Shown here one piece after another: positions 1 to 27,494 of a DNA stretch of 64,000 nucleotides (position 1 is the stretch's first letter; each line of letters opens with the position of its first letter). The translations under genes were made by a program, and so were the position numbers. The notes beneath the pieces are model-generated. The model made no database searches. It was not told the origin of the DNA and was given only the letters and a program-made list of their open reading frames with translations. This DNA comes from a virus, in IMG/VR virus record IMGVR_UViG_3300007863_000001, positions 1 to 64,000 of that record; one strand, written 5' to 3'.

Positions 1-90
1 AGACTCGTCCACTTTGAGAAGTGTCCACGAGACGCAGTAGTCTCATTGTTTATGCTGTAGACTACTAGGGTGGTTCTGAGGGAGGGAAGT

Positions 91-421
91 AATACACAGT
101 GTTCGTGTATTATAATTACACAGTATTGTGAGATATTCCATACCCCCGGTAGGGTTTTATATTACAATTAAGCAGTGTTGTTTGAGTTCGTTATAAGCAG
201 TCCTATGTGTTGACAATACCTTCGTGTTATGATATCATGATACCTGGGTAATATATTCTTAATTGTAATTACACAGTGTTGTTTGAGAAGAAATATAAGA
301 GACCTTCGTTATTACATACCCCCCATAGGGTTTTATATTATAATTAAACAGTACAGTATAATAAGTATTCGTTATTGTTCGTGCATTATAATTAAACAGT
401 GCTAAGTGTTAAATACACAGT
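91..421. repeat. Degenerate direct-repeat array in a non-coding region (8 x WWTAMRCAGT plus longer duplicated blocks)
   Basis: Copies start at 91, 115, 167, 192, 268, 343, 391 and 412. Block 139-176 matches 315-352 at 34/38 nt, 102-124 matches 378-400 at 21/23 nt, and cagtgttgtttgag occurs at 173 and 274. Confidence 0.85.
210..238 (+). promoter_or_regulatory. Sigma70-type promoter inside the repeat array
   Basis: TTGACA (210-215), 17-nt spacer, TATCAT (233-238), with an extended -10 TG at 230-231. Confidence 0.7.
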
Positions 422-630
422 TATATGTGATTAATGATGTAAAGTATTATAAACCGATGGGGGGTCCGAAAAGAAAAACGCATAAGTCCCTAACCTACAA
501 AAGTATGCGTCTGCGAGTGATATATAATTCGATAAAAGAAAACAATTTAGAATAAAAAATTTTCCACCAATAAAAAATCACCTATAGGGTTGATATATAG
601 AGACTAAGTAAGTATCATCAAAAGAATGCA

Positions 631-774
631 ATGTTAGAATTTACACAAGAGGAGAGGGAATTATTAATTGAGACTCTTCAATATAGATTAGAGAATGATA
701 AGATAGTAAAAGTGAATGAGTTATTACGAGAGGATCTTGAAGATTTATTGTTTAAAGTAGAAGACACTGAATGA
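631..774 (+). CDS. Small acidic hypothetical protein, 47 aa (MLEFTQEERELLIETLQYRLEND...)
   Basis: Translated by hand, not in the ORF track. Stop overlaps the next ATG (ATGA), suggesting translational coupling. Confidence 0.6.
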   Translation: MLEFTQEERELLIETLQYRLENDKIVKVNELLREDLEDLLFKVEDTE

Positions 775-923
775 ATACTTATAGTATTGAATATCAAGGG
801 ATTACGATAGTGAGTGAAGTAAAACCAGAGGAATTAGAGAGGACACTAATTCAAGTAAGGGGTATAGTTGCATTTGGGGGGAAGGATGAGGAGCAAATAG
901 AAGTAATTCTAAATAGGGAGTAA
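771..923 (+). CDS. Small hypothetical protein, 50 aa (MNTYSIEYQGITIVSEVKPEELERTL...)
   Basis: Translated by hand; ATGA overlap with the upstream ORF; protein-like composition. Confidence 0.6.
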   Translation: MNTYSIEYQGITIVSEVKPEELERTLIQVRGIVAFGGKDEEQIEVILNRE

Positions 924-19733: not shown

Positions 19734-22700
19734 ATGACAACTAGAGTAATTCCAGGTTCAGGTGCAGTATTTACACCAAATTTTGATGCTGAATATCGTG
19801 TTACATCATTTACGATACTTGATGGTGGTACTGGATATGCGAGTACAGACCCTCCTAAAATTGAAATATTAGGAACTAGAACTCCACTTGAGGAGGGTTC
19901 TTTTTATCCAATTATTGCTAATGGTAAGATTACTCAAATTGCTATATTGAATTCTGGAAGAGGATATTTTCCAGTTGAGGGGACATCAGATACAAAAGTT
20001 GGAATTGTTACTACAGAATATGTTGAAAGTTCATTAAAAGTAACTAAATTCGATTCAAATAATAATCCTTATGTCTCAGTTGCATCAACTGAGTCTCATG
20101 TTGTAATGCATGTTACTTCAGGAAAAGGAAGTGCTATTTTTGAGAATGGATATAATCGTACTATTGATCAATCTGGATATTCTGGAGTAACTGCTCCAAT
20201 AACACCAAATTATTCTGGGCAACAAAATAGATTTTGGGGATTTTTCAATCCATTCCCATCTTACTTCACAACTGGTCTTGGCACTGACGCAAAATTCAAT
20301 GCATTCATTGTTTATGATTCCTTTACTGGTGATGCAATATCAACTTCATTAGTATTAAGGTCTGGTGGTCAAAAATATTCAATTGGAGATCAAGTTTCAA
20401 TATCTGGAACATATTTTGGTGGTAACACTCCAGCAAATGATATATCATTTACAGTTTCAACTACAACTAACACAAGAATTGGTTCTGAAGCAAATAATAG
20501 TTATGTTGGAGTTCCTGGTGAAACAATATCAGGAATTGGTTCTGGTGTAATTTTAACTCTCACAAGAGACCAATTGGGTGATATTGATGAAATAGAAGTC
20601 ACCAATGGTGGTGCTGGTTATGCATTAACAAGCACCATTGGTGTTTCTGGAACTTTCATCGGTGGTTCTACACCAGGAGATGATTTAAAGTTATCTCCAG
20701 AAGTTTTGGGTGCAAATACACTACCACCAGTCTCTTACATCCAGAAGACCGATGATAATGGATTTAGAGTTAGTGGATTATCAACTACTTCTCCATTTAT
20801 AACATTAAGAAGTTATGGTATTGGAACTCATTCATTTAATTTCGAGAATCCAAATGCAAGTTCAATTATTCTAATTGATAATATTATTCAAAGTGCTCTA
20901 TACAGAAGAGATTTAAATAGAACACTAACACAGCCAATTGGCATTAAAACAACAACTATACATTTAAGTGGAATCACCTCAATAACCTCTTTAGATACAA
21001 TTCAAGTTGATTCTGAATACTTTGATGTTAAGGATGTCGGATTAAATGGTCCTAATACAGTTGAAGTTGTTAGGGGTACGATGGGTTCCGAGGTTGGTTA
21101 CCACACGGTTGGAGCAGCAGTTACTGTCCTTAGAGGAGACTTTAACATCATTAGGGATGAGATTAATTTTAAATCTGCACCTTTTGGTCCTATTGGACCA
21201 GATGGATTAGAAATTAACTCATCCTTTAATGGAAGAATGTTCTCAAGACAAGTTGATTATGGAAATCAACCAAATGATAAAAACGTTGTATTTGATGATA
21301 TTAGCACAAAGTTTGTTGGGGCATCATCAACAGAGTTTTTCCTAGAAAGTAATACTCAACCACTGGTTGGCATTTTTACTGATACATCGGCAGTTTTAGT
21401 TGGTGGTATTGATGTAAACTTAAATCCATTAGTTCTCATCAATAATGTATCACAGATTTCAGGAACAGATTTTGATATTGATAACGATAGACTACAATTA
21501 GAAAAAGGAAATAGAATCAAATTTTTAACAGGAACTCCAGGTGCTGGAAAAATTTCAAGAACAACCAATAACAGTGGATTGGGATATCAGAGACTTGTTG
21601 GAGCAGGTGGAACAATAGTAGTTGGAGCAGGTGGAACTATTGTTAGTATTGATATACAACAATTTGGTAGTGGGTATAGAACAGCACCAGAAGTTCAAGT
21701 TATATCAAATGTTGGTAGTGGAGCATCATTAGTTGCAAATATTGGTGCAGGTGGAGTTATTACCTCTATTGATATAATTGAATCTGGAACTGGTTATGTT
21801 GAACCAAGATTAAAAGTCGATATTCCTATTAATTATAGTGATATAGAACTTGAGTATGCAACATCACCACCAGGTGAGGGAATTGGTGCAAGAGCATCTG
21901 TTGTAGTTGGAAATAGGGGAGATATTATTGGTTTTGAAATGGAAGAACCTGGAATATATTATAAGATTGGAGATAGATTGAAGTTCCCAATAACAGAATT
22001 ACTACCAAGTACAGGTATATCCACAGTAAATGTTATTGCTCTTTCTTATGAAAATACTACAGGTCTTACCACAGTATTCACAGATACTGCACATGGATTA
22101 ATGCCAGATGACTATGTGAGGTTGTCAGGAGTTGCAATGACTTGCGAATCTTGGACAGGATTTACAACATTTACAATCAACAGCTTCAATTATGAACCGT
22201 CTGCTGGTATTTGCACTATAACAACCGAAATACCTCATGGATTACCAGAGGGTGACTATATTCAGTTGGAGGAAATTAATTTAACGTGTATATCTGAGTA
22301 TACTGGTATTACTTCAACTGTTTTCCCATATCCAGCAGGAATTAACACCTTTGGTAATACATACCCACAAAGTAGTCCAAATACTCTTGGTGGAACATAT
22401 AATGTATTCAGATCTATAGCAGGTACATCAGGGACAACTATCGTTTTCAATGCTGGTGTTTCTACCATAACTCATCTTTATGATCCAGGTAGTTTTATTC
22501 AAAATGTAACACCAACAGATGCTTATTATGACCCACTAAGTGGTGAATTTACAGTCACTTCTGTTGGGCATACAGTGACTACTAATAATAGAATTCAACT
22601 GTTGGAGGGTGGATTTGCATTCACATGTTCGATGGATAATAATGTCACTGAGCATTATTTACCAGAAAGTGATCACTTCGCAATAGGAAGATTGCTTCAG

Positions 22701-25700
22701 GTAACTGGAGTAACCACAGATACTTTCACAGCATATGTTGGTGCTGCTGGTCCAGGAGATTTTTATACCCCATCAAATGCCTCATACAATACAAGTACTG
22801 GAGATATTACTCTCACATTAGGAAATCATAATGTTTCAATTGGTGATACTATCTTTATACGTGATAGTGCTTTGACATTTACTTGTGATATGGATTCCAA
22901 CCAGGCACAAAAAACTTATCCCCGTCCTGGAATTGATCCATATGCAAACAAAGGAATCGAAGTTACAGGAGTTGCGGGAACAACAGTAACAATAAATGTT
23001 GGATCTGCAGGAACGGATAGATTCTATACACCTTCTGATGCTGATTATAATCCAGTAACAGGTGATTTAACTGTTACTGTAGGACAACATGGACTAGGTG
23101 TTGGTAGAAATGTAGTTCTTGCAGATAATTCGTTTACATTTACATGTGCGTTAGATGGACATGGAACACAACACAATTATCCCCGTCCTGGTATTGATCC
23201 CTATGCAGGAAAATCAATACCAATTACGAATGTTGGATTAACAACTCATACAGTAACTAATGCGGTTTATAATGCAACTGTAGGTGTTGTTTCTTTCACC
23301 GTTCCAAATCACGGATTTAGTAATAGTGATTATGTAAAAGTAGATGATAATTCACTACTGTTTACATGTGATCTTGATGGAAATACAGCAATTAAGGCAT
23401 ATCCAAGACCAAATTATGATTTCCCAAGTGGTAGATGGATGATTATCAGTAATTCAACAACTGATACTTTTGAAATTAATGTAGGACCATCAACATATAC
23501 AGGTAATCATACATTTGTGAGTGCCGATCCTTACAGTCTCGAAAGGCAAGATGGAACATTTACAATTAATGTGGGTACAGGGGGGACAGATACTAGTGAA
23601 CATACTTTCGTTACTGCTTCATTAAATGCAATTGAATATACCCCACAATCTACACATACATTTGTAAGTGCATTAACAAACTCAATAGCAAGAAATCCAG
23701 AAAGATATTTCACCCCATCTGATGCAACTTATAATCCAATTTCTGGTGATGTAGTTTTAACAATTGGAGAGCATCCATTTACAAAAGGTGAAGGAATTGT
23801 ATTAAGACCAAATTCATTATCATTTACTTGTGATATGGACAATAATCAGTCCGTTAAATCATATCCACGTCCTGGTATCGACCCATATGCAGCAAGATCA
23901 ATTCCAGTTAAAGATTTTACATCAACAACAATTACTTTAAATGTTGGTGTTTCTGGACCAAACAGATATTATACTCCAACAGATGCAAACTACAATCCAT
24001 CTACTGGTAATTTAACTGTCACTGTAGGTCAACACGGATTAGGTGTAGGAAGAAATGTTGTTTTAGATGACAATTCATTCACATTTACTTGTGATTTAGA
24101 TGGTAATTCTACACAACATACTTACCCACGTCCTGGAAGTGATCCTTATGCAGGACGTTCTATAGAAATTATACAAGTAGGTCTAACTACACACACTGCG
24201 ACTGATGCACCTTACAATGCAGTAACTGGAGTTGTTACACTAGAAGTTACTGGTCATGGATTTAGTAATGGTGATTATGTATTAATTGAAGATAATTCAT
24301 TGAGATATTCTTGTGATTTAGATGGTCATTCTCAATGGAAATATTACCCAAGACCAAATTATGATTACCCAAGTGGAAGATGGTTAGCAATTTCAAATGT
24401 AACCACTGACACTTTCGATATTAATGTTGGTGAATCAAGTTATACAGGAATTCATACATTCATAAGTGCAACTACTGATGGAATTAAGAGACAGGATGGA
24501 ACATTTATAATGTATGTTGGTACTGGTGGAACAGACACTAGTAATCATACATTTGTAAGTGCATCTACAAATGCTATTAAGCATGAACCACAGTCAAATC
24601 ATACTTTTATTGCTGGAATTCCATATTCAGTAAGACAAGATATACAAGCACCTCATACTTTTGTCAGGTCTTCAGATGATGCTATTTCTGTCTATAGTTA
24701 TAATGGAACTGCAACAATAGGTATTACTTCAACTGTTTTCCCATATCCAGGAGCAAGTTACAACACTGTTGGTGATACATTCGATGTATTCACTGCACTA
24801 GAAGGAACAGAAGGGACAACTGTCGTATTAAATGCTGGAATTTCAACTATTGCACATACCTATGACTTTGGTGGAACAATAACAAATACACCTTTCACTG
24901 AATTTGAAGTAGTTGTTGATGAATCAATGACTGATAAGTTTAGTGGTTTCTATCCAGGTCAGTTTATACAATTTGATGATGTCTCAAGATTATTCAACGG
25001 AAGAAAAAGAAAATTCACTTTAACAGTTACTGAAGGAAATGAAACCAAAATCTTAAGTTTAAAGACTAAAAAAGAATCTGATATGAGAATGGAAAACAAT
25101 TTATTCGTTTTCGTTAATGATGTATTGCAGCAACCATATTATTCATACATTTGGAATGGTTCTAGAATTGTATTTAAAGAGGCACCTTTAAGAAATTCCA
25201 AATGTACTATATTATTCTTCAGAGGTTCTGATTTAGATGTTATTCAGATAGATCCACCAGAAACAATCAAAGAGGGTGATGTTGTTCAGATTGGTGAGAA
25301 TAAATTTGACCCAATTGATAGAGAACAGTTTGAGAGAGTTGTTAAGAAAATTATTTCTACAGATACCTTAGATACATTTACTTATGATAGTCTTGGAATT
25401 AATACCGATCCAAATAAAGAAAGACCAGTAAGATGGGAAAAACAAACCCAAGATAAAATTATTAATGGTGTCTTGTATTCTAAAGCAAGACCAAGTTTAC
25501 GTTCTAGAGTTGCTCCAATTACTAGACTCATTAAATCAGTTGAAGAAGATGATATTGAAATCTACGTAAATAATGCTTTTCCATTATTTACTGATGTTGA
25601 TAAATTACAGGAAAGTTTGAGAAATATAAAAATTGTTGATGACGGAGAAATAGAACCAGCAATAGTTCAATCAACAGTTTCAACAACATCTTCAATAGAA

Positions 25701-27494
25701 TCATTAACAATTGTTGATGGTGGGTCTGGTTTTGACACTATAGTAAATCCAACTGTAGCAATTTCCTCTGCATTTATTGATAAAAAAGACCCAATTTATA
25801 ATTGGACTGGTGCATCTGGTATCTCAAGTATCTTTAACTTCACAAGTGTCTTAATTTCATCTCCAATAGTTGCAGTTGGATCTAGTAATCTATTGGGAAT
25901 TTCAACAGATGGAACAAATTGGCAAGAAAGTACTATTGGATATGGAAGTACTGATGTCATAGATTTTAACTCTATTGCATTTGCACCACAAGACAATTTT
26001 GTTGCAGTTGGAAGCACTGGAACTATAGTTAAAGGTTCTGGTATTGGTGGAACTTCAATGACCTGGAGTGAACTGACTAAGTTCAAAGAAACATTCTTTA
26101 TTGGTTCACCTATTCCAACTTTATCTGCAAGTAACTATGATGATGCACTTAATGAGATAATTTATCACCCACAAAAAGATACATGGATTGCTGTTGGTGA
26201 TAATCGTGGTGTGTTTAAAGCAGTAGGAATTGGGACAACAACTTTCTATGAAAAGACACCACCAACTTTAGGTAATCTCAATAGTGTAGCATTTAATTCA
26301 ACTACGATTGTAGCAGTTGGAGATGGAGCAAATATAGCTTATTCAAATGATGGTAATATTTGGTCTCAATCTTTTGGCATTCCTTCGACAAGAGATTTAG
26401 AATCTGTAATATGGACTGGAACTACTTTTATTGCTGTAGGAAATCAAGGTACAATATTAACATCTGATAACGGGTCTACTAATTGGATAAAAATTACTCC
26501 AAATATATCCTTCAATTTTACTAAGATAAGGTATGAATATGGTTTATTTGTTGCTTTAAATGACTCTGGTCAATTATATTACTCAATGAATTTAGAAACC
26601 TGGGTGTTCAGAGAGACAAATTCTTTATATCAATTAAATGATTTAAGATTTATACCCACACCTCCACCAGTAGAGCAGAGAGATCCAAATGTTCCTGTAA
26701 TTACAGATGAAGGTAGATTTGTTGCTGTAGGTTCAGCAGGAACTGCTATCTATGCCGAACCAATCTTCAATAGAGCAACAGGAATTTCTACAGTAACAAA
26801 TGGTTCCGTATCTTCAGTTACAATTACAAATCCTGGATTTGGTTATCAGTATAATATTGCACCTCCAGTCATAATTGAATCCGATACAATTCAGTCTGAG
26901 CAAATCAGGTCAATAAAAGTTGTTGGTGACTTTGGACTTATTAAAAATGTTTCTGTTGGAAATTCCTTTATTAATTTCGAGTTAGAATCTGAGAGATATG
27001 ATAATACTACTCTAGGTATTGGTTATTCATCACTAAATACCTATGGTGTAAACTTTAGTGAACTTGAAGTTGGTGATTACTTTGTAATTACTGAAAGTAA
27101 TACCGTTGTTGGTCAAGCACTTACTGGAATTACTACTTACAGTGGTGGATTAAATAATTATCCAGATTCTAAAGTTGGAACTGCACAATCTGGTGGTTCT
27201 ATCAATGGCATATACAGAGCAGAACGTGTTTCTCCACCACCAAGTGGTGTTGGGATTGTTACAGTAAGATGCATGTTTGCATATGGTTCGGATTATGCAG
27301 AGCAACCTATAACAGCATTTGTAGATACCACTGCAAATACTAATGGAACTCATGGAAGATACTCTTGGGGTAAAATATATGATTATCAGAATAGAAGAGC
27401 ATTTACACCAAAGGAATTTGTTGTAAATACAGATAATGGTACTGTTGGTTTATCTACTGCACCACAAGTGTATAGAACCCGTACTATAAAATAG
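19734..27494 (+). CDS. Giant baseplate-associated virion protein (gp7 C-terminal-like) with a nested Cys/His domain array and a beta-propeller
   Basis: G.GY repeats; FDDIS..F.G modules; nine 'Y..TG..T...H...TC...YP...HT[FY]' domains at about 22020-24885; VAVG..G.I..S.DG..W blades at about 25800-26760; C-terminal G.YSWGKI; directly upstream of gp8. Confidence 0.75.
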   Translation: MTTRVIPGSGAVFTPNFDAEYRVTSFTILDGGTGYASTDPPKIEILGTRTPLEEGSFYPIIANGKITQIAILNSGRGYFPVEGTSDTKVGIVTTEYVESSLKVTKFDSNNNPYVSVASTESHVVMHVTSGKGSAIFENGYNRTIDQSGYSGVTAPITPNYSGQQNRFWGFFNPFPSYFTTGLGTDAKFNAFIVYDSFTGDAISTSLVLRSGGQKYSIGDQVSISGTYFGGNTPANDISFTVSTTTNTRIGSEANNSYVGVPGETISGIGSGVILTLTRDQLGDIDEIEVTNGGAGYALTSTIGVSGTFIGGSTPGDDLKLSPEVLGANTLPPVSYIQKTDDNGFRVSGLSTTSPFITLRSYGIGTHSFNFENPNASSIILIDNIIQSALYRRDLNRTLTQPIGIKTTTIHLSGITSITSLDTIQVDSEYFDVKDVGLNGPNTVEVVRGTMGSEVGYHTVGAAVTVLRGDFNIIRDEINFKSAPFGPIGPDGLEINSSFNGRMFSRQVDYGNQPNDKNVVFDDISTKFVGASSTEFFLESNTQPLVGIFTDTSAVLVGGIDVNLNPLVLINNVSQISGTDFDIDNDRLQLEKGNRIKFLTGTPGAGKISRTTNNSGLGYQRLVGAGGTIVVGAGGTIVSIDIQQFGSGYRTAPEVQVISNVGSGASLVANIGAGGVITSIDIIESGTGYVEPRLKVDIPINYSDIELEYATSPPGEGIGARASVVVGNRGDIIGFEMEEPGIYYKIGDRLKFPITELLPSTGISTVNVIALSYENTTGLTTVFTDTAHGLMPDDYVRLSGVAMTCESWTGFTTFTINSFNYEPSAGICTITTEIPHGLPEGDYIQLEEINLTCISEYTGITSTVFPYPAGINTFGNTYPQSSPNTLGGTYNVFRSIAGTSGTTIVFNAGVSTITHLYDPGSFIQNVTPTDAYYDPLSGEFTVTSVGHTVTTNNRIQLLEGGFAFTCSMDNNVTEHYLPESDHFAIGRLLQVTGVTTDTFTAYVGAAGPGDFYTPSNASYNTSTGDITLTLGNHNVSIGDTIFIRDSALTFTCDMDSNQAQKTYPRPGIDPYANKGIEVTGVAGTTVTINVGSAGTDRFYTPSDADYNPVTGDLTVTVGQHGLGVGRNVVLADNSFTFTCALDGHGTQHNYPRPGIDPYAGKSIPITNVGLTTHTVTNAVYNATVGVVSFTVPNHGFSNSDYVKVDDNSLLFTCDLDGNTAIKAYPRPNYDFPSGRWMIISNSTTDTFEINVGPSTYTGNHTFVSADPYSLERQDGTFTINVGTGGTDTSEHTFVTASLNAIEYTPQSTHTFVSALTNSIARNPERYFTPSDATYNPISGDVVLTIGEHPFTKGEGIVLRPNSLSFTCDMDNNQSVKSYPRPGIDPYAARSIPVKDFTSTTITLNVGVSGPNRYYTPTDANYNPSTGNLTVTVGQHGLGVGRNVVLDDNSFTFTCDLDGNSTQHTYPRPGSDPYAGRSIEIIQVGLTTHTATDAPYNAVTGVVTLEVTGHGFSNGDYVLIEDNSLRYSCDLDGHSQWKYYPRPNYDYPSGRWLAISNVTTDTFDINVGESSYTGIHTFISATTDGIKRQDGTFIMYVGTGGTDTSNHTFVSASTNAIKHEPQSNHTFIAGIPYSVRQDIQAPHTFVRSSDDAISVYSYNGTATIGITSTVFPYPGASYNTVGDTFDVFTALEGTEGTTVVLNAGISTIAHTYDFGGTITNTPFTEFEVVVDESMTDKFSGFYPGQFIQFDDVSRLFNGRKRKFTLTVTEGNETKILSLKTKKESDMRMENNLFVFVNDVLQQPYYSYIWNGSRIVFKEAPLRNSKCTILFFRGSDLDVIQIDPPETIKEGDVVQIGENKFDPIDREQFERVVKKIISTDTLDTFTYDSLGINTDPNKERPVRWEKQTQDKIINGVLYSKARPSLRSRVAPITRLIKSVEEDDIEIYVNNAFPLFTDVDKLQESLRNIKIVDDGEIEPAIVQSTVSTTSSIESLTIVDGGSGFDTIVNPTVAISSAFIDKKDPIYNWTGASGISSIFNFTSVLISSPIVAVGSSNLLGISTDGTNWQESTIGYGSTDVIDFNSIAFAPQDNFVAVGSTGTIVKGSGIGGTSMTWSELTKFKETFFIGSPIPTLSASNYDDALNEIIYHPQKDTWIAVGDNRGVFKAVGIGTTTFYEKTPPTLGNLNSVAFNSTTIVAVGDGANIAYSNDGNIWSQSFGIPSTRDLESVIWTGTTFIAVGNQGTILTSDNGSTNWIKITPNISFNFTKIRYEYGLFVALNDSGQLYYSMNLETWVFRETNSLYQLNDLRFIPTPPPVEQRDPNVPVITDEGRFVAVGSAGTAIYAEPIFNRATGISTVTNGSVSSVTITNPGFGYQYNIAPPVIIESDTIQSEQIRSIKVVGDFGLIKNVSVGNSFINFELESERYDNTTLGIGYSSLNTYGVNFSELEVGDYFVITESNTVVGQALTGITTYSGGLNNYPDSKVGTAQSGGSINGIYRAERVSPPPSGVGIVTVRCMFAYGSDYAEQPITAFVDTTANTNGTHGRYSWGKIYDYQNRRAFTPKEFVVNTDNGTVGLSTAPQVYRTRTIK
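22752..24641 (+). repeat. Tandem duplication of a 945-nt (315-aa) three-domain arm
   Basis: 22752-23696 (PGDFYTP...SIARN) and 23697-24641 (PERYFTP...VRQD) are equal in length with matching motif order; a third copy lies at about 55046-55978. Confidence 0.88.

What the first reader, a model, noticed from the sequence alone, without database searches (positions are those of the whole stretch)
22020..24885. Recursive 'Russian-doll' domain tree: nine nested domains forming a predicted Y-shaped branch in the 2586-aa virion protein
Seen in sequence: a domain of about 100 aa has an opening half (Y[DNE]..[ST]G..T.T...H...G..I.L....[FT]TC) and a closing strand (H[TL][FY]). These are not arranged head-to-tail. 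There are nine openings (SYENTTG, NYEPSAG, YYDPLSG, SYNTSTG, DYNPVTG, VYNATVG, TYNPISG, NYNPSTG, PYNAVTG) and nine closings, which come in bursts (HTFVSA..HTFVTA..HTFVSA; HTFISA..HTFVSA..HTFIAG..HTFVRS; plus HLY and the final AHTY). They parse as balanced brackets 1[2[3[4[5[6]]][7[8[9]]]]]]. Domain 1's second half (GITSTVFPYPG...AGISTIAHTY) appears about 860 aa after its first half and mirrors the intact domain 2. Inference: each domain sits in a loop of its parent, so one chain runs out and back to build a six-deep, two-armed antenna on the baseplate. I know of no description of a branched nested architecture this deep in phage proteins.
Basis: partly seen in the sequence, partly recalled or inferred. 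Interest (0 to 1): 0.9.

Follow-up and report, generated by a model that had tools for sequence, protein, structure and literature searches.

The report
Self-nested barrel tree in cyanophage gp7
A giant baseplate protein of a T4-like marine cyanophage carries nine copies of one small beta-barrel domain plugged into each other's loops to form a branched tree; cyanobacterial RNA polymerase is built this way, but I found no paper describing it for a virus particle.

Summary
ORF 19734-27494 (2586 aa) holds nine openings and nine closings at the stated places, against about 0.01 openings expected by chance.

A profile of the intact inner domain matches the split copies in complementary pieces: positions 3-72 plus 73-96 for domain 5, and 3-84 plus 87-95 for domain 4. 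A profile of intact domain 2 matches domain 1 as 2-50 plus 47-109, about 850 aa apart.

AlphaFold2 folds one arm at pLDDT 94.5 and pTM 0.86. Single solved barrels superpose on model ranges that span the inserts for domains 3, 4, 7 and 8.

The correct tree is 1[2, 3[4[5[6]], 7[8[9]]]]. Domain 2 is a closed leaf, so the tree is five levels deep, not six.

The whole tree is itself an insertion. In S-CAM9 gp7 about 18 aa replace 976 aa. Close orthologues carry 6, 9 or 13 domains, the last eight levels deep.

The fold is like the E1 FCCH barrel. Sequence-level Pfam membership is not met.

A rigid Y shape is not shown (whole-region pTM 0.51), and function is inferred.

The closest precedent is the Si3 insertion of cyanobacterial RNA polymerase. 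This scan has already noted the same build in at least 15 other genomes.

The parts
19734..27494 (+). Host gene: 2586-aa gp7-type baseplate wedge protein
   Evidence: The ORF is intact. PHROGs hits are baseplate wedge, tail fibre and virion structural families. The C-terminal 865 aa are 43% identical to S-SSM7 'gp7: baseplate wedge initiator'. The next gene matches phrog_438, a baseplate wedge subunit.
22008..22163 (+). Domain 1, opening half (aa 759-810), interrupted just after its Cys (site C)
   Evidence: The domain-2 profile matches aa 764-811 at profile positions 2-50, E 1.4e-9.
22164..22493 (+). Domain 2 (aa 811-920), an intact leaf of the FPYPG subtype
   Evidence: It opens at aa 820 and closes with HLY at 914, before domain 3 opens. 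Its second half is 52% identical to aa 1663-1713.
22506..22763 (+). Domain 3, opening part (aa 925-1010), the branching node
   Evidence: The inner-domain profile matches at positions 3-83. Single solved barrels align onto model range 161..900.
22764..23024 (+). Domain 4, opening part (aa 1011-1097), base of arm 1
   Evidence: The profile matches at positions 3-84. Solved barrels align onto model ranges 3..316 and 250..566.
23025..23240 (+). Domain 5, opening part (aa 1098-1169), interrupted in a hairpin (site A)
   Evidence: The profile matches at positions 3-72.
23241..23528 (+). Domain 6 (aa 1170-1265), intact tip of arm 1
   Evidence: The profile matches at positions 1-96, E 4e-50. The model resembles the E1 FCCH barrel with Z 8.1, rmsd 2.5, 76 residues aligned.
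23529..23621 (+). Domain 5, closing part (aa 1266-1296)
   Evidence: The profile matches at positions 73-96, the exact complement of 3-72.
23622..23672 (+). Domain 4, closing strand (aa 1297-1313)
   Evidence: The profile matches at positions 87-95, the complement of 3-84.
23709..23969 (+). Domain 7, opening part (aa 1326-1412), base of arm 2
   Evidence: The profile matches at positions 3-84. A solved barrel aligns onto model range 568..881.
23970..24185 (+). Domain 8, opening part (aa 1413-1484)
   Evidence: The profile matches at positions 3-72. A solved barrel aligns onto model range 654..863.
24186..24473 (+). Domain 9 (aa 1485-1580), intact tip of arm 2
   Evidence: The profile matches at positions 1-96, E 4e-50. 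E1 FCCH matches with Z 8.1 on model range 728..831.
24474..24566 (+). Domain 8, closing part (aa 1581-1611)
   Evidence: The profile matches at positions 75-96.
24567..24617 (+). Domain 7, closing strand (aa 1612-1628)
   Evidence: HTFIAG lies at aa 1623 and aligns with the last strand of the intact domains.
24618..24671 (+). Domain 3, closing strand (aa 1629-1646)
   Evidence: HTFVRS lies at aa 1641. Model ranges 161..900 place it with the domain 3 opening part.
24672..24872 (+). Domain 1, closing half (aa 1647-1713)
   Evidence: The domain-2 profile matches aa 1662-1713 at positions 47-109, E 9.5e-15. This half is kept in the orthologues with 6, 9 and 13 domains.

Best explanation
Residues about 757-1715 of this gp7-type baseplate wedge protein are a tree of nine homologous beta-barrel domains of about 95 aa each. 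Their fold resembles the E1 FCCH barrel. The tree is built by recursive insertion of the domain into loops of its own kind.

Layout:
- Domain 1 is split just after its conserved Cys and holds domain 2 (a leaf) and domain 3.
- Domain 3 is split before its last strand and holds two homologous arms in tandem.
- Each arm is a three-deep nest, 4[5[6]] and 7[8[9]].
- The chain leaves barrels unfinished on the way out and supplies their missing strands in reverse order on the way back.
- The tree therefore starts and ends at one point, a loop of the gp7 scaffold. Other cyanophages have only about 18 aa there.

Evolution. Because the two ends meet, whole nests can be gained or lost without disturbing the scaffold. 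Close orthologues carry one arm, two arms, or two arms plus a further four-deep nest.

Inferred, not shown:
- The inner barrels fold first and the outer ones last.
- An invariant His...Cys-x-x-Asp...His set, whose last His lies on the closing strand, ties each closing strand to its opening half, possibly through a metal ion.
- The tree projects from each of the six baseplate wedges as a fairly stiff appendage that touches the host surface or braces the baseplate periphery.
For: Sequence:
- Nine openings and nine closings sit at the stated places, far above chance.
- Rejoined halves align with the intact domains.
- Profile coordinates are complementary: domain 5 matches at 3-72 plus 73-96, domain 8 at 3-72 plus 75-96, domain 4 at 3-84 plus 87-95, and domain 1 at 2-50 plus 47-109.
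- Across 120 homologues, the type of each closing matches the type of the opening that the bracket parse pairs it with. The diagonal counts are 41, 60, 44 and 58, with few off-diagonal pairs.

Structure:
- AlphaFold2 of arm 4[5[6]] from 46 natural arms gave pLDDT 94.5 and pTM 0.86.
- Single barrels from the PDB superpose at rmsd 2.0-2.4 A on model ranges 3..316 and 250..566 (domain 4), 161..900 (domain 3), 568..881 (domain 7) and 654..863 (domain 8).
- An independent BFVD model of a Synechococcus phage ACG-2014d protein matches the arm with TM 0.87.

Natural variants:
- The insertion site is empty in S-CAM9 gp7.
- The orthologues P0038 (2264 aa), P0001 and P0014 (2586 and 2578 aa) and P0002 and P0003 (3007 and 3011 aa) carry 6, 9 and 13 domains. 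The domain 1 halves flank the tree in every case.

Conserved residues: His, Cys, Asp and the closing-strand His are invariant or nearly so in all three domains of the 46 arms.
Against: - I could not read model coordinates. Strand pairing is inferred from which model ranges superpose on single solved barrels, not from a contact map.
- Domains 1 and 2 are poorly modelled, with pLDDT below 50 in their second halves where the alignment has only 10 rows. Closure of domain 1 therefore rests on sequence and on the indel series alone.
- Whole-region pTM is 0.51, so the mutual arrangement of trunk and arms is undefined.
- Conservation is even along the arm, 60-70% identity in every domain. The tips are not hypervariable, as receptor-binding tips often are.
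- No natural unsplit copies of domain types 3, 4 or 5 were found to serve as direct controls.
- Nothing here shows that the protein is in the virion. That rests on annotations of homologues.
Confidence: 0.82

Rival explanations
1. The nest is real, but it is a structural brace rather than a projecting host-binding antenna. It would pack against neighbouring wedges, fibres or the sheath base and set baseplate geometry.
For: Conservation is even along the arm, with no hypervariable tip. One middle domain (type 5) is the most conserved part. Whole-region pTM of 0.51 gives no defined extended shape.
Against: The number of arms varies between close orthologues, and the tree is absent at this site in other gp7 proteins. 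That fits an accessory decoration better than a load-bearing element. Sullivan et al. 2005 read the giant gp7 fusions as fibre-like (PMC1079782).
Confidence: 0.3
2. Completion in trans. The unfinished barrels are closed by HTF strands of another copy of the protein (domain swapping), which would knit subunits into an intertwined fibre.
For: Phage fibres are often intertwined trimers. I could not test oligomers, and the one complex prediction gave no verdict.
Against: A single chain gives a confident closed solution, with pLDDT 94.5 and pTM 0.86. The number, order and type of the closings mirror the openings of the same chain exactly, including in the 13-domain orthologue. From established knowledge of T4, gp7 is present as one copy per wedge.
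Confidence: 0.06
3. Beads on a string. The openings are truncated domains in tandem, and the HTF bursts are a separate short shaft repeat unrelated to them.
For: The closing strands of domains 3, 4 and 7 are short, about 9-18 aa, and on their own score weakly against the profile (iE 0.27 for domain 4).
Against: Profile coordinates are complementary for domains 5, 8, 4 and 1. Openings and closings are equal in number in the 6-, 9- and 13-domain orthologues. Closing types come in mirrored order. Solved barrels superpose across the inserts.
Confidence: 0.03

Closest known systems
Si3 insertion of cyanobacterial and plastid RNA polymerase beta' (RpoC2)
   Same: Many copies of one small beta domain are recursively inserted into each other. 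PMC10120043 counts nine SBHM domains. PMC13114784 describes eight domains in a six-level recursive architecture with bifurcating nodes. The whole array is itself an insertion in a loop of the host protein.
   Different: The fold is different: sandwich-barrel hybrid motif there, FCCH-like closed barrel here. No RNA polymerase chain appeared among the listed structural matches. The host protein and setting also differ: the trigger loop of an enzyme there, a virion baseplate protein here. The copy number varies between close relatives here (0, 6, 9, 13).
E1 FCCH domain (Pfam PF16190) and FCCH-like decoration domains of siphophage tail-tube proteins (PMC13576161)
   Same: It is the best structural match of the intact barrels: 4p22_B with Z 8.1, rmsd 2.5 A and 76 residues aligned. 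There are weak partial Pfam hits. In E1 the FCCH domain is itself an inserted domain, and in phage tail tubes it faces outward as a decoration.
   Different: The sequence score is below Pfam's cut-off (24.5 against 29.5 bits, and only profile positions 3-28). In the known cases the domain occurs once and is not nested in itself. The conserved YPRP motif and the His/Cys/Asp/His set are specific to the phage family.
Single-level inserted beta-barrels in phage proteins: the barrel domain of phage phi92 endosialidase (4hiz) and the I-domain of P22 coat protein (2m5s)
   Same: The barrel type is similar: 4hiz_A matches with Z 8.5, rmsd 2.2 and 83 residues aligned. Each is an accessory domain plugged into a loop of a host domain.
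   Different: These are one level of insertion into an unrelated host domain. There is no self-nesting and no branching.
Giant gp7 fusions of cyanomyoviruses (P-SSM4 orf080, P-SSM2 orf113; Sullivan et al. 2005, PMC1079782)
   Same: It is the same protein family and the same domains. tblastn hits 360 cyanophage records. P-SSM4 gp7 is 7312 aa.
   Different: That paper notes only the size and the fusion to gp7 and suggests a fibre role. It does not describe nested domain topology.

Membership tests
Recursively self-nested domain array (the kind known from RpoC2 Si3) | Domains are discontinuous in sequence, with halves that complement each other | tested here: met
   Profile positions 3-72 plus 73-96 (domain 5), 3-72 plus 75-96 (domain 8), 3-84 plus 87-95 (domain 4) and 2-50 plus 47-109 (domain 1). 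Rejoined halves align with intact domains.
Recursively self-nested domain array (the kind known from RpoC2 Si3) | Closing pieces return in the reverse order of the openings, giving balanced brackets | tested here: met
   The order of motifs was read. Closing types mirror opening types across 120 homologues. The 13-domain orthologue adds four openings and four closings.
Recursively self-nested domain array (the kind known from RpoC2 Si3) | In three dimensions the two halves form one domain | tested here: met
   This rests on predicted structure only. Single solved barrels superpose on model ranges 161..900, 250..566, 568..881 and 654..863 and 3..316. Domain 1 remains inconclusive because its pLDDT is low.
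Recursively self-nested domain array (the kind known from RpoC2 Si3) | Common descent with the SBHM/HABAS domains of Si3 | tested here: inconclusive
   The best structural matches are FCCH, EF-Tu domain 2 and FNR-type barrels. No RNA polymerase chain is among the 50 listed rows, and absence from that list does not exclude it.
Pfam PF16190 E1_FCCH | Sequence score at or above the gathering cut-off (29.5 bits) | tested here: not met
   The whole protein scores 24.5 bits and matches only profile positions 3-28 of 70. Single domains score 12-15 bits.
Pfam PF16190 E1_FCCH | Six-stranded closed beta-barrel fold | tested here: met
   4p22_B and 9mc4_A match with Z 8.1 and rmsd 2.4-2.5 A over 75-76 residues, and 2v31 with Z 6.4-6.5, on intact domains 6 and 9. 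By the tool's own note, Z near 8 is the upper end of common-fold matches.
T4-type gp7 baseplate wedge initiator | Homology to proteins annotated gp7 in T4-like phages, and position in the baseplate gene block | tested here: met
   The flanks are 27-43% identical over 99% of their length to 'gp7: baseplate wedge initiator' of S-SSM7, S-CAM9 and others. The neighbouring genes match baseplate wedge PHROGs.
T4-type gp7 baseplate wedge initiator | Detectable similarity to T4 gp7 itself | tested here: inconclusive
   phmmer against all PDB chains gave no T4 baseplate hit. No fold comparison of the flanks was made.
Tandem decoration domains (Ig-like or FN3 beads on a string) | Complete domains arranged head to tail | tested here: not met
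   Only three of the nine copies (2, 6, 9) are contiguous. The other six are interrupted.

The most novel reading that the evidence does not exclude
Cyanophage baseplates grow branched, stiff protein trees by recursive self-insertion of one barrel. Each joint is stapled by an invariant His/Cys/Asp/His site, possibly a metal site, that ties the late-arriving closing strand to the waiting opening half. This would let the tree fold from the inside out. The number and depth of branches (0, 6, 9 or 13 domains in near relatives, up to eight levels) would be a fast-evolving trait that sets the reach or avidity of host contact.
Probability: 0.2. Interest if true: 0.8.

Novelty: new variant of a known kind. 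Interest (0 to 1): 0.62.

Why it matters
Recursive self-insertion is a rare way to build a protein. The one well-described case is an enzyme insertion, Si3 of cyanobacterial RNA polymerase.

Here the same principle, with a different fold, builds a branched appendage on a virus particle. That particle belongs to one of the most abundant virus groups in the ocean. Close relatives carry trees of 0, 6, 9 and 13 domains, so its evolution can be followed step by step.

What it offers:
- A natural system for studying how a chain folds when a domain's last strand arrives hundreds of residues late.
- A candidate evolvable module for host contact in cyanomyoviruses.
- A warning for annotation and domain-parsing tools, which read these proteins as tandem repeats or as 'hypothetical'.

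An orthologue 93% identical to this protein reaches eight levels. That is deeper than the six-level example given in a 2026 survey of domain insertions (PMC13114784).

Tried and rejected
- Complex prediction on the two halves of domain 1 (aa 757-810 and 1647-1715) gave no verdict: score 0.31 against a mark of 0.32, and the controls were not run. It is not used as evidence either way.
- Foldseek of the whole arm against the PDB found no real match (TM at most 0.18). Domain-level matches came only from VIA-align.
- Megablast of the region against phage records found nothing.
- The PDB sequence search found no relevant hit.
- I looked for natural unsplit copies of domain types 3, 4 and 5 as direct controls. 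Type 5 always carries exactly one inserted domain. The BLAST hits that seemed to span the junctions proved spurious, because the part after the junction aligned to the next nested domain.
- I tested whether the tip domains are hypervariable, as receptor-binding tips often are. They are not.
- Pfam scans of single domains gave only sub-threshold E1_FCCH and DUF7243 hits.
- Literature searches for nested or inserted domains in phage baseplates and fibres, for FCCH in phages, and for cyanophage gp7 found no description of this topology in a phage protein.
- I considered a covariation test of opening against closing pairing. I dropped it because the shared ancestry of whole nests would give the same signal for wrong pairings.


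Full report
**Gene and setting**

The finding lies inside one intact ORF, 19734-27494 on the + strand, 2586 aa.
- PHROGs assigns the protein to baseplate wedge, tail fibre and virion structural families.
- The gene downstream matches a baseplate wedge subunit over its whole length. The genes upstream carry baseplate and fibre-connector matches.
- The parts of the protein that flank the finding are 27-43% identical, over 99% of their length, to proteins annotated 'gp7: baseplate wedge initiator' in S-SSM7, S-CAM9, DSL-LC03 and other Synechococcus phages.
- tblastn with the finding itself hits 360 cyanomyovirus records, all below 60% identity. One is the 7312-aa gp7 of Prochlorococcus phage P-SSM4.
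- The window is therefore from a T4-like marine cyanophage, and the protein is its gp7-type wedge protein. I found no sequence match to T4 gp7 itself among solved structures.

**The observation**
- The nine openings are at aa 772, 820, 932, 1018, 1105, 1179, 1333, 1420 and 1494.
- The nine closings are at aa 914; 1259, 1290, 1308; 1574, 1605, 1623, 1641; and 1708.
- Residue shuffles of the segment give 0.011 openings on average against nine observed. They give 0.55 closing motifs against ten observed, one of which is an internal QHTY.

**An assumption-free version of that test**

I built a profile from the intact innermost domain of 46 natural arms and ran it over the unedited protein.
- Domains 6 and 9 match profile positions 1-96, with E about 4e-50.
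- Domain 5 matches 3-72, and a separate piece 105 aa downstream matches 73-96.
- Domain 8 matches 3-72 and then 75-96.
- Domain 4 matches 3-84 and then 87-95.

A profile of intact domain 2 matches aa 764-811 at positions 2-50 (E 1.4e-9) and aa 1662-1713 at positions 47-109 (E 9.5e-15). Domain 1 is therefore a split copy of the domain 2 type, with its halves about 850 aa apart.

**The tree**
- Domain 2 opens at aa 820 and closes at 914, before domain 3 opens at 932. It is a leaf beside domain 3, not its parent.
- The parse is 1[2, 3[4[5[6]], 7[8[9]]]]. It is five levels deep inside the tree and has three tips.
- There are three insertion sites. Site C lies just after the conserved Cys (domain 1). 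Site A lies in the hairpin before the INVG strand (domains 5 and 8). Site B lies between the INVG strand and the last HTF strand (domains 3, 4 and 7).
- The two arms, aa 1005-1320 and 1320-1635, are 63% identical over 316 aa without a gap. They are a tandem duplicate of a three-domain nest.

**Predicted structure**
- I collected 80 related loci from IMG/VR and aligned 46 natural, contiguous arms that are 51-83% identical to arm 1.
- AlphaFold2 folded arm 4[5[6]] with mean pLDDT 94.5 and pTM 0.86. Every closing piece is a confident strand.
- I could not read coordinates, so I used fold comparison as a proxy for contacts.
- Against 48,161 solved chains, the intact domain 6 matches the E1 FCCH barrel best: 4p22_B with Z 8.1, rmsd 2.5 A and 76 residues aligned.
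- Single barrels of about 80 residues, such as the phi92 endosialidase barrel (Z 6.9, rmsd 2.0 A, 72 aligned), superpose on a model range that runs from residue 3 to residue 316. That is possible only if the two pieces of domain 4 lie together.
- The whole region (aa 757-1720) folded with mean pLDDT 77 and pTM 0.51. Domains 3-9 score 75-95. The second halves of domains 1 and 2 score below 50, where the alignment has only ten rows.
- In that model, single solved barrels superpose on ranges 161..900 (domain 3, pieces about 620 aa apart; 4pgo_A with Z 6.4, rmsd 2.3 A and 69 aligned), 250..566 (domain 4; EF-Tu domain 2 with Z 7.0 and rmsd 2.4 A), 568..881 (domain 7) and 654..863 (domain 8).
- An independent BFVD model of a structural protein of Synechococcus phage ACG-2014d matches the arm with TM 0.87 over 315 columns.
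- The low whole-region pTM means that a defined Y shape is not shown.

**Natural variants act as experiments**
- In S-CAM9 gp7, aa 325-744 and aa 1721-2585 of this protein align to residues 896-1315 and 1334-2145. About 18 aa stand where this protein has 976 aa.
- With the tree removed, the flanks of this protein align contiguously to S-CAM9. DSL-LC03 and S-8S55 show the same short gap. The tree is thus itself an insertion in a loop of gp7.
- Orthologue P0038 (2264 aa) has one arm. P0014 (2578 aa) and this protein have two. P0014 and P0038 differ by 314 aa, the length of one arm.
- P0002 and P0003 (3007 and 3011 aa; 93% and 85% identical) carry four more openings and four more closings. These form a four-deep nest in site B of domain 8, giving 13 domains and the chain 1>3>7>8>10>11>12>13, eight levels deep.
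- The halves of domain 1 flank the tree in every variant.
- A crude bracket parse of 120 homologues shows four-deep nests in many of them, with varied tree shapes. The type of each closing agrees with the type of the opening that the parse pairs it with.
- In some loci the three-domain nest sits inside a helical host domain instead.
- A profile of the inner domain finds only 618 cluster representatives among 1.84 billion proteins, many with several copies and one with 30. The family is narrow.

**What it is called**
- Pfam gives only sub-threshold, partial E1_FCCH hits: 24.5 bits against a cut-off of 29.5 for the whole protein, and 12-15 bits for single domains. The domain is an unnamed family with an FCCH-like barrel fold.
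- FCCH-like barrels are known as outward-facing decorations of siphophage tail tubes (PMC13576161). There they occur once and are not nested.

**How it most likely works**

Shown: the topology, the complementary halves, the empty site and the indel series.

Inferred:
- The chain builds barrels from the inside out. Outer barrels wait, in the case of domain 1 for about 850 residues, until their last strands are made.
- In the 46 arms, each of the three domains keeps an invariant or nearly invariant set of His, Cys-x-x-Asp and the His of the closing HTF strand. In this protein all nine domains keep the two His and the Cys, and domains 3-9 also keep the Asp. A site that joins the closing strand to the opening half, possibly through a metal ion, would explain this. 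I could not test the geometry.
- If gp7 is present once per wedge as in T4 (established knowledge, not tested here), a virion would carry six trees.
- Conservation is even along the arm. The tips therefore do not look like hypervariable receptor binders. What varies is the number and depth of branches.
- I favour a projecting accessory appendage for contact with the cell surface. A bracing role in the baseplate periphery is the main rival.

**Comparison with what is known**
- A 2026 survey of domain insertions describes an eight-domain, six-level recursive nesting with bifurcating nodes in Prochlorococcus RpoC2 Si3 (PMC13114784). The cryo-EM paper on the cyanobacterial enzyme counts nine SBHM domains (PMC10120043). 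The principle is therefore known.
- The fold, the host protein, the virion setting and the variable copy number are different here.
- Sullivan et al. 2005 noted the giant gp7 fusions of P-SSM2 and P-SSM4 but not their topology (PMC1079782).
- My searches found no paper that describes nested domains in a phage baseplate or fibre protein.
- Earlier notes of this scan report the same build in at least 15 other genomes, with the same closest precedent. I reached the Si3 precedent independently.

**Verdict**

The feature is real and well supported. Its shape and its function remain open.

Noticed in passing
L016:5700-7050, and likewise L044, L050, L051, L052, L060: In these cyanophage loci the same three-domain nest is inserted into a helical-looking host domain, not into a barrel of its own kind. 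The flanks read ...KYTRKY..NYFNDAGTDW before the nest and ...GLRGEE..LTAFSKAVELMK after it. The nest therefore behaves as a portable insertion module.
   Followed up: no
Homologues P0062, P0069, P0070, P0072, P0083, P0094, P0114, P0117: Several giant homologues carry precomputed Pfam PF00502 (phycobilisome protein) hits, and others carry PF13599 or PF13385. Earlier notes of this scan also mention phycobiliprotein-like domains in such fibre proteins.
   Followed up: no
Homologues P0044, P0050, P0055, P0056 and others, compared with window 21530-22030 (aa 600-765): In these 3400-3750-aa relatives the scaffold either side of about aa 672-688 of this protein is conserved, but about 2500 aa lie between the two parts. 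The gp7 scaffold therefore has a second site, upstream of the one used here, that accepts very large insertions.
   Followed up: partly
window 25851-26753 (aa about 2040-2340): Six or seven spaced copies of a hydrophobic-x-A-V-G motif (IVAVGSS, FVAVGST, WIAVGDN, IVAVGDG, FIAVGNQ, FVAVGSA) sit about 40-45 aa apart, each followed by a Trp-containing stretch. This looks like a beta-propeller in the C-terminal part of the protein.
   Followed up: no
window 19734-22000 and 26800-27000 (aa 1-756 and about 2350-2375): Short G-G-x-G-Y/F motifs recur (DGGTGYAS, NGGAGYAL, FGSGYRT, SGTGYVE, DGGSGFD, PGFGYQY). They suggest another small repeated domain in the gp7 scaffold.
   Followed up: no
window 22746-24638: In 46 natural arms, every barrel keeps an invariant or nearly invariant set of His (before the third strand), Cys-x-x-Asp (end of the fourth strand) and His (closing HTF strand). 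This may be a metal or other stapling site across the split.
   Followed up: partly
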